Source: Escherichia coli
GTDB taxonomy: Bacteria; Pseudomonadota; Gammaproteobacteria; Enterobacterales; Enterobacteriaceae
DNA length: 64,000 bases
Assembly (NCBI RefSeq): GCF_048403405.1
Contig: NZ_CP183129.1
Reading direction: 5' to 3' (one strand)
Below, one piece after another: positions 23,418 through 26,400 of the stretch (its first letter is position 1; every line of letters begins with the position of its first letter). A program made the position numbers.

Positions 23418-26400
23418 TGACACTAACGCCCGCACATTGCTGCGGGCTTTTTGATTCATTTCGCAAATGTGCTGACATTTTCCCCTCTAATCCGTACCAT
23501 ACACGCCACAGTTTTTATATCAGATTTCTTATGCTGGGCGTTCCGGCATGACGCATACTCTTCTGATGCCATATAACGAATTGAGTCGCTTTTAAATGTC
23601 GCAAAATCAAGAAATTAGTAAGAAAGAACAATACAACCTGAACAAATTACAAAAACGTCTGCGTCGTAACGTGGGCGAAGCCATTGCTGACTTCAATATG
23701 ATTGAAGAAGGCGATCGCATCATGGTTTGCCTCTCCGGGGGTAAAGACAGCTATACCATGCTGGAGATTCTGCGCAATTTGCAGCAAAGCGCGCCAATCA
23801 ATTTTTCGCTGGTGGCTGTCAACCTCGATCAAAAACAACCGGGCTTCCCGGAACACGTTCTGCCCGAGTATCTTGAAAAGCTGGGCGTTGAGTACAAGAT
23901 TGTGGAAGAGAACACTTACGGTATCGTGAAAGAGAAGATTCCGGAGGGCAAAACCACTTGCTCACTGTGTTCTCGTCTTCGTCGCGGTATCCTTTATCGT
24001 ACCGCAACGGAACTGGGAGCGACGAAGATCGCGCTGGGTCACCATCGTGACGATACCCTGCAAACGTTGTTCTTAAATATGTTCTACGGCGGCAAGATGA
24101 AAGGTATGCCTCCGAAACTGATGAGCGATGATGGCAAACATATCGTGATTCGTCCGCTGGCCTACTGCCGCGAGAAAGATATTCAGCGTTTTGCCGATGC
24201 AAAAGCGTTCCCGATTATTCCGTGCAACCTGTGCGGTTCACAGCCTAACCTGCAACGTCAGGTGATTGCTGACATGTTGCGTGACTGGGATAAACGTTAT
24301 CCGGGGCGTATCGAGACGATGTTCAGCGCGATGCAGAATGTGGTGCCGTCGCATCTGTGCGATACCAACCTGTTCGATTTCAAAGGCATTACCCACGGTT
24401 CTGAAGTGGTTAACGGGGGTGATCTGGCGTTTGATCGCGAAGAGCTCCCTCTACAACCGGCGGGTTGGCAGCCTGAAGAAGATGAAAATCAGTTGGATGA
24501 GTTACGACTGAATGTGGTTGAAGTGAAATAACCAGGATAGCGCCCGATGCGCAAGCTTATCGGGCTACTCTTATGGAGGCCGGATAAGACGCGGCCAGCG
24601 TCGCATCCGGCAATCCCGAAGAAGATGTTTACTCTTGCACCCTGCAATTCAACATTTCATTATTTTAATAACCGCACCCGGCACGTTTTTCCTTTAATCT
24701 TCCCGCCCTGTAACTGTTTCCATGCTTTATGAGCAACAGCCTGACGCACCGCGACATAGACATGCGCCGGATGCACGGCGATTTTGCCAATATCTGCGCC
24801 ATCAAGCCCGATATCTCCTGTCAGCGCACCTAATACATCACCCGGGCGCATTTTGGCTTTTTTCCCGCCATCGATACATAACGTTGCCATTTCGGCTTCC
24901 AGCGGCACAATGGAACTATTAACTGGTGGCGTTTGCCAGTTAAGTTTTATCTGCAACATGTCAGAAATGATATTGGCCCGCTGTGCTTCTTCCGGGGCAC
25001 AGAAACTGATCGCCAGACCGCTATTTCCTGCACGCGCTGTACGACCGATGCGATGTACATGAACTTCAGGATCCCACGCCAGCTCAAAGTTCACCACCAG
25101 CTCAAGCGATTTAATATCCAGACCTCGCGCAGCAACATCAGTCGCAACCAGTACACGGGCGCTACCGTTAGCAAAACGTACCAGGGTCTGATCGCGATCG
25201 CGTTGCTCCAGATCGCCGTGTAACGACAATGCACTTTGCCCTACTTCATTCAGCGCGTCGCAGACAGCCTGGCAATCTTTTTTGGTATTGCAAAACACCA
25301 CACAAGAGGATGGCTGATGCAAGCTTAATAACCGTTGCAACAGAGGAATTTTGCCTTTACTGGATGTCTCATAAAATTGTTGTTCAATGGGTGGCAAAGC
25401 ATCTGTTGAGTCAATTTCAATCGCTAAAGGATCGCGTTGCACTCGTCCGCTGATTGCGGCGATGGCTTCCGGCCAGGTTGCCGAAAACAGAAGCGTCTGT
25501 CGAGATGCAGGCGCAAAACGGATGACATCATCAATGGCATCGCTAAATCCCATATCCAGCATGCGGTCGGCCTCATCCATCACCAAAGTATTCAGCGCAT
25601 CCAGTGATACCGTGCCTTTTTGCAAGTGATCCAGCAAACGACCCGGCGTTGCCACGATAATATGCGGCGCATGTTGCAACGAATCACGCTGCAAACCGAA
25701 CGGTTGACCACCGCACAACGTCAAAATTTTAGTATTTGGTAGAAAACGCGCCAGCCGACGCAATTCACCTGCCACCTGATCCGCCAGTTCACGCGTAGGA
25801 CACAGCACTAAAGCCTGGGTTTGAAATAGCGACGCATCAATTTGCTGTAACAAGCCGAGGCCAAAAGCCGCCGTTTTGCCGCTGCCGGTTTTCGCCTGCA
25901 CGCGAACATCTTTTCCGGCAAGGATCGCCGGAAGCGCGGCGGCCTGCACCGGCGTCATGGTTAAATAACCCAACTCATCAAGGTTCGTGAGTTGGGCGGG
26001 AGGCAAAACATTCAGGGTAGAAAAAGCGGTCACAATCTATTCTCGTGGTCATCGACGCAAAGTCAGCAGGCGCGTATCCTCGCAGATCTACGCTCACGAT
26101 GCGACAATTTAATCGGTTCTTCATCGGGTGGTGGGTCAGGCATGGGTTGCGGGCGAGGGATCGGATCGGGCACTGGAACAGGATCGCCAGGAATCGGTTC
26201 AGGGACAGGAATTTGCAAATAAATAAGTGTCGTCATATTTCCCTCCGGTCATTGGGTGGACTCTTAAAGGGTAGACGCTGATAAATAACAGGCAAAATAA
26301 ATATCCTCCGGCATAGCCGGAGGTTTTTCAAATGCGCCTATAAGGCTCTCTTACCAGCCGCGCCCTAACAGGCGCACACGATCTGACATTTGCATCCAAC

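What the first reader, a model, noticed from the sequence alone, without database searches (positions are those of the whole stretch)
26063..26236. Unlisted proline-rich 57-codon ORF with strong SD directly upstream of dbpA
Minus strand reads GGAGGG, 4 nt, ATG, then MTTLIYLQIPVPEPIPGDPVPVPDPIPRPQPMPDPPPDEEPIKLSHRERRSARIRAC, with the stop 29 nt before the dbpA GTG start. It falls below the 60-aa track threshold. Repeated Pro-X-Pro and PPP runs are sequences that typically depend on EF-P for translation, so it could be a small protein or a leader peptide coupling dbpA expression to translation status. The mirror-image glycine-rich ORFs on the plus strand are a compositional consequence.
Basis: seen in the sequence. 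Interest (0 to 1): 0.5.

Follow-up and report, generated by a model that had tools for sequence, protein, structure and literature searches.

The report
Known proline-rich small protein YnaL
This short reading frame is the already catalogued and experimentally detected E. coli small-protein gene ynaL, a strongly conserved proline-rich peptide of unknown function that lies just upstream of the ribosome-assembly helicase gene dbpA.

Summary
The ORF is exactly as described (26063..26236, minus strand; GGAGGG, 4 nt, ATG; stop 29 nt before the dbpA GTG). It is not new. RefSeq annotates it as ynaL, "proline-rich small protein YnaL". It matches Pfam PF23677 (E=2e-40), and the protein was detected by chromosomal SPA tagging in 2018. 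It looked unlisted only because of the 60-aa cut-off.

The peptide core is under purifying selection as strong as dbpA (dN/dS 0.058 vs 0.041, dS about 1.4). PPP occurs in 125 of 139 unique family members, so EF-P dependence is plausible.

The dbpA-leader idea is only partly supported. ynaL has its own conserved promoter (TTGCCT-N16-TACCCT) next to the fnrS terminator. It persists under selection in Erwinia, Mixta, Phytobacter and Scandinavium, where dbpA does not follow it.

The RSARIRAC tail is probably not a peptide feature. It is encoded by a 21-nt element (AGATCTGCGAGGATACGCGCC) that stays invariant, untranslated, in four lineages where ynaL stops earlier. This junction element is unexplained; it could be a small GNRA hairpin or an internal dbpA promoter.

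Verdict: a known gene of unknown function, most likely an autonomous small protein co-transcribed with dbpA in E. coli.

The parts
26063..26236 (-). ynaL coding sequence (57 codons plus TGA); identical to WP_001296046.1, 'proline-rich small protein YnaL'
   Evidence: protein detected by SPA tag (PMC6001520)
26241..26246 (-). ynaL Shine-Dalgarno GGAGGG, 4 nt before the ATG (K-12 has AGAGGG)
   Evidence: conserved as GGAGG/GAGGG in the alignment
26268..26295 (-). Inferred ynaL promoter TTGCCT-N16-TACCCT; the -35 overlaps the tail of the fnrS terminator
   Evidence: same hexamers and an exact 16-bp spacing with free spacer sequence in 33 of 43 unique upstream regions; the tool calls the Erwinia counterpart TTGCCA-17-TATGCT. 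The consensus scan is negative in this window. No TSS data were available.
26117..26185 (-). Peptide-selected core, codons 18-40 (DPVPVPDPIPRPQPMPDPPPDEE); the PPP codons are at 26126..26134
   Evidence: amino acids fixed, all four Pro codons used; dN/dS 0.058, dS 1.41; same pattern where dbpA does not follow; extended, no secondary structure, pLDDT about 90
26099..26119 (-). Block 1, GAACCGATTAAATTGTCGCAT (codons 40-46). Near-invariant at nucleotide level in all lineages where dbpA follows ynaL directly (the final CAT is CGT in three of them). Candidate hairpin HP1 CGAU[UAAAUU]GUCG.
   Evidence: Baseline: only 3.5% of dbpA third positions are invariant, longest run 1
26090..26098 (-). Variable codons 47-49 (R-E-R here). 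In-frame stops occur here in four other lineages. Forms the 5' strand of the candidate HP2 outer stem.
26069..26089 (-). Block 2, AGATCTGCGAGGATACGCGCC (codons 50-56, RSARIRA). A nucleotide-level element specific to the ynaL-dbpA junction, kept untranslated in four lineages. Candidate GNRA hairpin AUCU[GCGA]GGAU, or an extended -10 TGcGAGGAT with a GC-rich discriminator.
26034..26062 (-). 29-nt spacer between the ynaL stop and the dbpA GTG; contains the weak dbpA Shine-Dalgarno CGAGA (26041..26045)
24660..26033 (-). dbpA, ATP-dependent 23S rRNA-specific DEAD-box helicase, GTG start
27009..27126 (-). fnrS sRNA, the invariant upstream neighbour of ynaL (60-70 nt from the ynaL start in genomes without the IS)
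26298..27006 (-). IS200C copy (709 bp; tnpA 26405..26863) inserted in the U-tract of the fnrS terminator, 2 nt from the ynaL -35

Best explanation
The ORF is ynaL, a known, genuinely translated small-protein gene. It is most likely an autonomous gene. It is transcribed from its own sigma-70-type promoter, which abuts the fnrS terminator. Its product is a roughly 30-residue acidic Pro-x-Pro segment that adopts an extended, polyproline-II-like, non-globular shape and is selected as a peptide, most plausibly as a linear ligand for a partner still to be identified. Because it carries DPPPD, its synthesis is expected to need EF-P. In the Escherichia-Salmonella-Citrobacter-Enterobacter-Klebsiella-Kosakonia group, dbpA lies directly downstream with no terminator called in between, so ynaL is the first cistron of a ynaL-dbpA unit. 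There, the 3' end of ynaL overlaps a conserved nucleotide element (blocks 1 and 2) that belongs to the junction and probably serves dbpA expression. The last eight residues (RSARIRAC) are a read-through of that element and not a selected peptide feature. Shown: identity, translation, peptide-level selection, the nucleotide-level element, variable gene context, promoter-like conservation. Inferred: promoter activity, EF-P dependence, co-transcription with dbpA, action of the peptide in trans, and the role of the junction element.
For: Identity and expression: RefSeq annotation in a strain 100% identical over the 471-nt query and in K-12; Pfam PF23677, E=2.2e-40; SPA-tag immunoblot and a tetracycline ribosome-profiling signal (PMC6001520). 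Peptide selection: dN/dS 0.058 at dS 1.41 against dbpA 0.041, specific to this frame; all four Pro codons used at fixed Pro positions. Autonomy: TTGCCT-N16-TACCCT with a free spacer in 33 of 43 unique upstream regions; a promoter called by the tool in Erwinia; fnrS always directly upstream. ynaL is retained with a convergent ttcA and no adjacent dbpA in Phytobacter, Mixta, Scandinavium and an unclassified Enterobacter, and upstream of ttcA, which has its own TATAAT promoter, in Erwinia. In those lineages variable sites by codon position are 4/2/22 of 23 and dN/dS is about 0.08. The tail is not a peptide feature: four lineages stop at codon 47 or 48 (TGA-TAA, TGA, TAG, TAA) yet keep AGATCTG[C/A]GAGGATACGCGCC untranslated in the same register, and dbpA third positions are invariant at only 3.5% with a longest run of 1. 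Shape: AlphaFold2 gives no secondary structure, pTM 0.23, pLDDT about 90 over residues 21-40.
Against: No function or partner is known, and no solved structure contains the protein. The SPA tag may stabilise a peptide that is normally short-lived. The pattern of a variable N-terminus with a conserved C-proximal segment, and a PPP placed two residues before the stop in Erwinia, Mixta and Phytobacter (...DPPPHR*...DPPPHM*...DPPPYR*), is also what a nascent-chain element acting in cis would show. The window's promoter fails the consensus scan and no TSS data could be retrieved. In the lineages with a convergent ttcA, canonical terminators on the ynaL strand are called only in Scandinavium.
Confidence: 0.6

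Rival explanations
1. ynaL is a cis-acting regulatory leader. Ribosomes stall at DPPPD when EF-P or peptidyl-transferase capacity is limiting. The stalled ribosome remodels the mRNA, for example by occluding GAAGAACCG just 3' of the PPP codons, which otherwise pairs with dbpA codons 2-5. This changes dbpA initiation in a SecM/MifM-like way.
For: PPP is present in 125 of 139 unique family members. Amino-acid-level selection covers the roughly 20 residues upstream of and including PPP, and nucleotide-level invariance begins about 4 codons after it, near the leading edge of a ribosome stalled there. dbpA has a GTG start and a weak SD. RNAalifold proposes a long-range helix GAAGAACCG/CGCUUUUUC and a small hairpin over the dbpA SD and GUG. 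DbpA and EF-P are both higher in exponential phase (PMC13393375; a correlation only).
Against: ynaL is kept under selection where no co-directional gene follows, or where the next gene has its own promoter. PPP is PSP in E. albertii and the C. youngae group. The proposed helices show no compensatory changes, gain extra mismatches in L048, and the region folds no better than shuffles (z=0.09). The stop-to-start distance varies from an overlap to 63 nt. Erwinia dbpA has the same GTG and weak SD without ynaL in front.
Confidence: 0.15
2. About the junction element only: block 2 is an internal promoter for dbpA embedded in the 3' end of ynaL. It would be an extended -10 (TGn-GAGGAT) followed by a GC-rich discriminator ACGCGCC, about 35 nt upstream of the GTG, with block 1 as an upstream or activator site.
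For: Block 2 is conserved whether translated or not. Its only two variable positions fall on the 'n' of TGn and on hexamer position 3, while A at position 2 and T at position 6 are invariant. The distance from its end to the dbpA start is nearly constant at 33-40 nt (counted from the alignments). A GC-rich discriminator would fit a growth-rate-controlled ribosome-biogenesis gene (established knowledge of stringent promoters), and DbpA is higher in exponential phase.
Against: The -10 matches the consensus at only 3 of 6 positions, there is no usable -35 at 16-18 bp, and the scan finds no promoter. Invariance over 21 consecutive bases including spacer positions is far more than promoters normally show; compare the free spacer of the ynaL promoter. 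No TSS data were obtained.
Confidence: 0.3
3. About the junction element only: blocks 1 and 2 are an RNA element made of two small hairpins. HP1 is CGAU[UAAAUU]GUCG. HP2 has an outer stem, a 2x2 internal loop, and AUCU[GNRA]GGAU. They would be recognised sequence-specifically by a protein or the ribosome and affect dbpA translation, processing or stability.
For: Most variable positions inside the blocks lie in predicted loops: A/G and U/A in the HP1 loop, and C/A as the N of the GNRA loop (GCGA/GAGA). HP2 is the minimum-energy fold in 20 of 27 unique sequences, and native order beats permutations of the 9 variable nucleotides on average (mean z -0.96, median rank 0.16). The element is conserved in both coding and non-coding settings.
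Against: The stems are invariant, so there are no compensatory substitutions. The outer stem fails to form in several genera (Enterobacter chuandaensis, E. soli, Citrobacter R56, K. michiganensis). In K. michiganensis and K. grimontii a G-to-C change breaks the pair that closes the loop. The hairpins are short and weak. Unpaired positions are invariant too, which structure alone does not explain.
Confidence: 0.3
4. The ORF is not a functional coding sequence. The conservation would reflect a non-coding element or the antisense glycine-rich ORFs, and the proline richness would be compositional.
For: The antisense mirror frame also shows a low ratio (0.112). Part of the ORF (blocks 1 and 2) is indeed constrained at nucleotide level.
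Against: The sense frame has the lowest dN/dS (0.058), third positions vary freely (29 of 39 codons variable at position 3, against 11 and 12 at positions 1 and 2), and the antisense frame has stops in 5 of 38 sequences. SD and ATG are conserved. The tagged protein was detected.
Confidence: 0.01

Closest known systems
YnaL (b4743-type small protein; Pfam PF23677 'Protein YnaL-like'; RefSeq WP_001296046.1 'proline-rich small protein YnaL')
   Same: Identical sequence, same position between fnrS and dbpA, full-length family match.
   Different: Nothing at the protein level. In this strain an IS200C separates fnrS from ynaL, and the SD is GGAGGG where K-12 has AGAGGG.
Ribosome-arrest leader peptides that control a downstream gene (SecM-secA, MifM-yidC2, TnaC-tnaA, ErmCL-ermC); comparison from established knowledge
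   Same: A short ORF directly upstream of, and co-directional with, a gene that has a weak start site. It contains a hard-to-translate motif, has a variable N-terminus, and is conserved over a stretch about as long as the exit tunnel.
   Different: No arrest has been demonstrated. No supported RNA switch was found. The gene persists without a downstream target in several genera. Conservation covers nearly every residue of a 30-residue stretch, not a few key positions.
EF-P-dependent polyproline proteins such as CadC, where a PPP motif tunes protein level (Ude et al. 2013 and Doerfel et al. 2013, cited in PMC13393375; otherwise own knowledge)
   Same: A DPPPD motif combining DPP, PPP and PPD, present in about 90% of family members.
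   Different: EF-P dependence of YnaL has not been measured. Some lineages have PSP.
TonB proline-rich spacer and proline-rich antimicrobial peptides (oncocin, Bac7, apidaecin)
   Same: Alternating Pro-x-Pro composition, and an extended conformation predicted. There is a weak compositional hit to the TonB polyproline region.
   Different: TonB scores 20.8 bits against a cut-off of 315, so YnaL is not a member. YnaL's core is acidic, whereas the antimicrobial peptides are strongly cationic. It has no signal peptide or membrane anchor.

Membership tests
YnaL family (Pfam PF23677 / RefSeq ynaL) | Full-length match to the family profile above threshold | tested here: met
   PF23677, E=2.2e-40, 136.8 bits, residues 1-57 on model 1-57 of 57
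YnaL family (Pfam PF23677 / RefSeq ynaL) | Same locus as the named gene: downstream of zntB-fnrS, upstream of dbpA in E. coli | tested here: met
   PMC6001520 lists ynaL between fnrS and dbpA with this exact sequence
YnaL family (Pfam PF23677 / RefSeq ynaL) | Protein actually synthesised | not testable with these tools
   Published SPA-tag immunoblot and tetracycline ribosome-profiling signal in K-12 (PMC6001520); not repeated for this strain
EF-P-dependent polyproline stalling substrates | Three consecutive prolines, or a strong XPPX motif | tested here: met
   DPPPD at codons 34-38; PPP in 125 of 139 unique family members; replaced by PSP in 4 of 34 core sequences
EF-P-dependent polyproline stalling substrates | Ribosome pausing or reduced output without EF-P | not testable with these tools
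   No data found
Regulatory arrest or leader peptides (SecM/MifM/TnaC type) | Always coupled to a co-directional downstream target gene | tested here: not met
   Met in this window. However, the next gene is a convergent ttcA in Phytobacter, Mixta, Scandinavium and an unclassified Enterobacter, and ttcA has its own promoter in Erwinia
Regulatory arrest or leader peptides (SecM/MifM/TnaC type) | RNA structure that masks the target's start site and is opened by the stalled ribosome | tested here: inconclusive
   Helices are predicted but show no compensatory changes, z=0.09, and extra mismatches in L048
Regulatory arrest or leader peptides (SecM/MifM/TnaC type) | Demonstrated elongation or termination arrest | not testable with these tools
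   Needs toeprinting or ribosome profiling
TonB (NCBIfam NF008084) | Score above the curated cut-off | tested here: not met
   20.8 bits against a cut-off of 315; a compositional match to the proline-rich spacer only
Sigma-70 promoter (for ynaL) | -35 and -10 hexamers at 16-18 bp, conserved across species while the spacer varies | tested here: inconclusive
   TTGCCT-16-TACCCT in 33 of 43 unique regions, and the Erwinia version is called by the tool. The window's version falls below the scan threshold, and no TSS data were available.

The most novel reading that the evidence does not exclude
The near-invariant 51-nt stretch at the ynaL-dbpA junction (blocks 1 and 2, window 26069-26119) is an undescribed cis-regulatory element. 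It would make dbpA expression depend on ribosomes translating the polyproline ORF, so that production of a helicase that matures the peptidyl-transferase centre is tuned by how well ribosomes cope with Pro-Pro bond formation (EF-P or PTC status).
Probability: 0.12. Interest if true: 0.6.

Novelty: already known. Interest (0 to 1): 0.3.

Why it matters
The ORF itself adds nothing new, because ynaL is annotated and its product has been detected. What still matters is that YnaL has no known function although it is as constrained as an enzyme across Enterobacteriaceae and Erwiniaceae. The comparative analysis here narrows the question in four ways. The selected part is the acidic Pro-x-Pro core, roughly residues 16-46. 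The basic RSARIRAC tail is a by-product of a nucleotide element. The gene is older than its association with dbpA. The conserved partnership is with fnrS. The unexplained junction element gives a concrete, testable handle on how dbpA, a ribosome-assembly helicase whose regulation is poorly described, is expressed.

Tried and rejected
1. rRNA mimicry or complementarity. I asked whether blocks 1 and 2 imitate or pair with 23S rRNA around helix 92, DbpA's target. Local alignments to 23S in both orientations score no better than shuffles. Rejected.

2. FnrS pairing with the ynaL start, the junction or the dbpA start. Duplex energies fall within the shuffle range. Rejected.

3. Hairpin B (block 1 pairing with block 2, from RNAalifold). 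The C-to-A change in L043, L048 and L053 puts a G-A mismatch in its 5-bp core. Dropped in favour of HP1/HP2, which are themselves only weakly supported.

4. Long-range helix A and the SD-GUG hairpin C. There are no compensatory changes, z=0.09, and they degrade in L048. Not supported.

5. Consensus sigma-70 scan of 25950-27250: no promoter called. By eye, sigma-E, sigma-32, sigma-54 and sigma-28 consensus elements do not fit at the correct spacing (inference only).

6. Block 2 travelling with dbpA. It is absent upstream of Erwinia dbpA, so it is junction-specific.

7. Published TSS or 3'-end tables. The supplements of PMC7815308 and PMC10301672 contain no ynaL or dbpA entries. The supplements of PMC6001520 are not held.

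8. Literature on YnaL function. Only the 2018 detection paper mentions ynaL in a biological sense.

9. Solved structures: no hit.

10. TonB similarity: compositional only.

11. The look-up of P0125 failed; the sequence is not on record.

12. My by-eye claim of terminators after stand-alone ynaL was only partly borne out by the scan and is worded accordingly.
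Full report
**Observation.** The minus strand of the window reads ccGGAGGGaaatATG, followed by 57 codons (MTTLIYLQIPVPEPIPGDPVPVPDPIPRPQPMPDPPPDEEPIKLSHRERRSARIRAC) and TGA. The ORF occupies 26063..26236. dbpA (GTG start, 457 aa) occupies 24660..26033, leaving a 29-nt spacer. An ORF of this length is not informative on its own, since 56 ORFs of at least 30 aa overlap the surrounding 4.5 kb.

**Identity.** The stretch matches 5393 of 5426 complete E. coli genomes. In all 26 sampled rows that cover it, the feature under it is annotated ynaL, 'proline-rich small protein YnaL' or 'protein YnaL'. 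A strain 100% identical over the 471-nt query (NZ_CP103479) and K-12 both carry it as WP_001296046.1. The protein is a full-length match to Pfam PF23677 'YnaL-like' (E=2.2e-40). VanOrsdel et al. 2018 (PMC6001520) list exactly this 57-aa sequence between fnrS and dbpA. They detected it as a chromosomally SPA-tagged protein, and they note it had been an unassigned positive in a tetracycline ribosome-profiling screen. No other paper in the searchable library discusses ynaL biologically. The ORF is therefore known and experimentally supported, and its function is unknown.

**Selection on the peptide.** Homologues occur in Escherichia, Salmonella, Citrobacter, Enterobacter, Klebsiella, Raoultella, Leclercia, Lelliottia, Kosakonia, Pseudocitrobacter and others. 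The first roughly 15 residues vary freely. From about D18 onward the sequence is nearly invariant. In 34 unique core sequences, variable sites by codon position number 11, 12 and 29 of 39, and the fixed prolines use all four Pro codons. For codons 18-40 the mean pairwise dN/dS is 0.058 at dS 1.41, compared with 0.041 for dbpA in the same genomes. The shifted frames give ratios above 1. The mirror antisense frame gives 0.112 and carries stops in 5 of 38 sequences. AlphaFold2 predicts no secondary structure (pTM 0.23) but high local confidence over residues 21-40, as expected for an extended polyproline-type segment. No solved structure contains the protein.

**Two kinds of constraint.** Codons 41-46 (CCG ATT AAA TTG TCG CAT) and 50-56 (AGA TCT GCG AGG ATA CGC GCC) are invariant or nearly so even at third positions, including the rare codons AGA, AGG and ATA. 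Across the same loci only 3.5% of dbpA third positions are invariant, and the longest such run is one codon. The 3' end of ynaL therefore carries a nucleotide-level constraint. The decisive comparison comes from four lineages in which ynaL stops at codon 47 or 48: TGA-TAA in L043, TGA in L048, TAG in L052, and TAA in L053 (Kosakonia cowanii). All four keep AGATCTG[C/A]GAGGATACGCGCC, untranslated and in the same register, in the spacer before dbpA. The RSARIRAC tail is thus most simply a read-through of a nucleotide element. The selected peptide ends around residue 46.

**What the junction element is remains open.**
- It is absent wherever dbpA does not follow ynaL directly, including upstream of Erwinia dbpA. 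It is therefore specific to the ynaL-dbpA junction.
- The first consensus fold (block 1 paired with block 2) is broken by the C-to-A change in three lineages.
- A better local model has two small hairpins: CGAU[UAAAUU]GUCG, and an outer stem plus AUCU[GCGA]GGAU. Most of the variable positions then fall in loops, and GCGA/GAGA are both GNRA loops.
- Support for this model is weak. The second hairpin is the minimum-energy fold in 20 of 27 unique sequences, with mean z -0.96 against permutation of the nine variable bases. Several genera do not form the outer stem.
- Read as DNA, TGcGAGGAT followed by ACGCGCC resembles an extended -10 with a GC-rich discriminator about 35 nt upstream of the dbpA GTG, and the two variable positions fall on tolerated sites. 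However, the hexamer is poor, there is no -35, and the scan finds nothing.
- I could not retrieve TSS data.
- Mimicry of, or pairing with, 23S rRNA and pairing with FnrS are both rejected.

**Context.** A profile search found more distant members with different C-termini...EEPIKLS(H)R*...DPPPHR*...DPPPHM* and ...DPPPYR*. Their loci show that ynaL is anchored to zntB-fnrS and not to dbpA. fnrS lies directly upstream, within about 70 nt of the called ynaL start, in every lineage checked. The downstream neighbour varies:
- dbpA in the E. coli group, L043, L048, L052 and Kosakonia;
- a co-directional ttcA followed by dbpA in Erwinia;
- a convergent ttcA with no adjacent dbpA in Phytobacter, Mixta, Scandinavium and an unclassified Enterobacter.

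In the lineages where dbpA does not follow directly, the core still shows 4, 2 and 22 variable sites of 23 by codon position, and dN/dS is about 0.08. GC-rich hairpins fill the short gap before the convergent ttcA, although the scan calls a canonical terminator on the ynaL strand only in Scandinavium. In Erwinia, ttcA has its own TTTCCA-17-TATAAT promoter.

**Promoter.** Directly after the fnrS terminator, 33 of 43 unique upstream regions have TTGCCT, an exactly 16-bp spacer of free sequence, and TACCCT (or TACCTT, TACGCT, TATTTT). The Erwinia equivalent, TTGCCA-17-TATGCT, is called by the scan tool. Fixed hexamers and spacing with a free spacer are the signature of a promoter. ynaL therefore very probably has its own sigma-70-type promoter, at 26268..26295 in the window. 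It is intact here although an IS200C has inserted two bases upstream.

**Mechanism.** The evidence best fits an autonomous small-protein gene whose acidic Pro-x-Pro core acts as an extended peptide ligand. In the E. coli group it became the first cistron of a unit with dbpA, and it overlaps a junction element that serves dbpA. EF-P dependence is expected from DPPPD, and PPP is present in 125 of 139 unique members, but it has not been measured.

Selection at the amino-acid level up to and including PPP, nucleotide-level invariance starting about four codons later, a weak dbpA start site, and a second PPP just before the stop in the distant variants would all suit a nascent-chain sensor. Against it stand five points:
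- ynaL persists without a target gene;
- PPP is PSP in E. albertii and the C. youngae group;
- the stop-to-start geometry varies;
- there is no supported RNA switch;
- Erwinia dbpA has the same GTG and weak SD without ynaL in front.

The only related published observation I found is that DbpA and EF-P are both more abundant in exponential phase (PMC13393375), which is a correlation.

**Verdict.** The feature is already known. Residual interest lies in the unknown function of a very tightly conserved peptide and in the unexplained junction element.

Noticed in passing
window 26298..27006 (-); tnpA 26405..26863: A 709-bp IS200C copy sits inside the U-tract of the fnrS terminator. It leaves six U's on the fnrS side and ends 2 nt from the ynaL -35. 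Only 9 of 5426 complete E. coli genomes share this arrangement. Its 5' UTR matches Rfam STnc490 (26873..26996), and a strong hairpin lies at its ynaL-proximal end (26305..26323). It may insulate ynaL from fnrS read-through.
   Followed up: partly
window 26069..26119 (-): About 51 nt at the 3' end of ynaL are near-invariant at nucleotide level across genera, including rare codons AGA, AGG and ATA, and stay conserved when untranslated in four lineages. The cause is unresolved: GNRA hairpin, internal dbpA promoter or a protein-binding site.
   Followed up: yes
window 28219..28266 (-): RefSeq annotates a 15-codon ORF ('protein YnaN') immediately upstream of zntB.
   Followed up: no
window 26246: The ynaL Shine-Dalgarno is GGAGGG here and AGAGGG in K-12, a single-base difference that should strengthen initiation in this strain.
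   Followed up: no
L010 (E. coli E69), L031/L032 (K. michiganensis, K. grimontii), L024-L026 (Citrobacter spp.): Natural variants. E69 has an in-frame 11-codon deletion within the Pro-rich core. The two Klebsiella species have lost the stop, so ynaL runs about 50 nt into dbpA. Three Citrobacter genomes have a 9-bp deletion that destroys the promoter spacing.
   Followed up: partly
L001 versus L002 (flank of ttcA; window below about 23596): In the strain identical to the window, uspF follows ttcA directly, whereas K-12 has the Rac prophage integrase intR there. This genome therefore lacks Rac at that site.
   Followed up: no
L038, L041, L044, L049 (ynaL C-termini): In Erwinia, Mixta and Phytobacter, YnaL ends with a second polyproline run two residues before the stop (...DPPPHR*, ...DPPPHM*, ...DPPPYR*). 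This recurring feature would place a stalled ribosome right at the end of the ORF. Its significance is unknown.
   Followed up: partly
all loci: ttcA next to ynaL or dbpA: ttcA is adjacent in every lineage examined; by general knowledge it encodes the tRNA 2-thiocytidine-32 synthetase that acts on several tRNA-Arg species and tRNA-Ser. The E. coli-type ynaL tail is rich in Arg codons read by those tRNAs (CGU, CGC, AGA, AGG). Because the tail is a by-product of the nucleotide element, this is probably coincidental. It was not tested.
   Followed up: no
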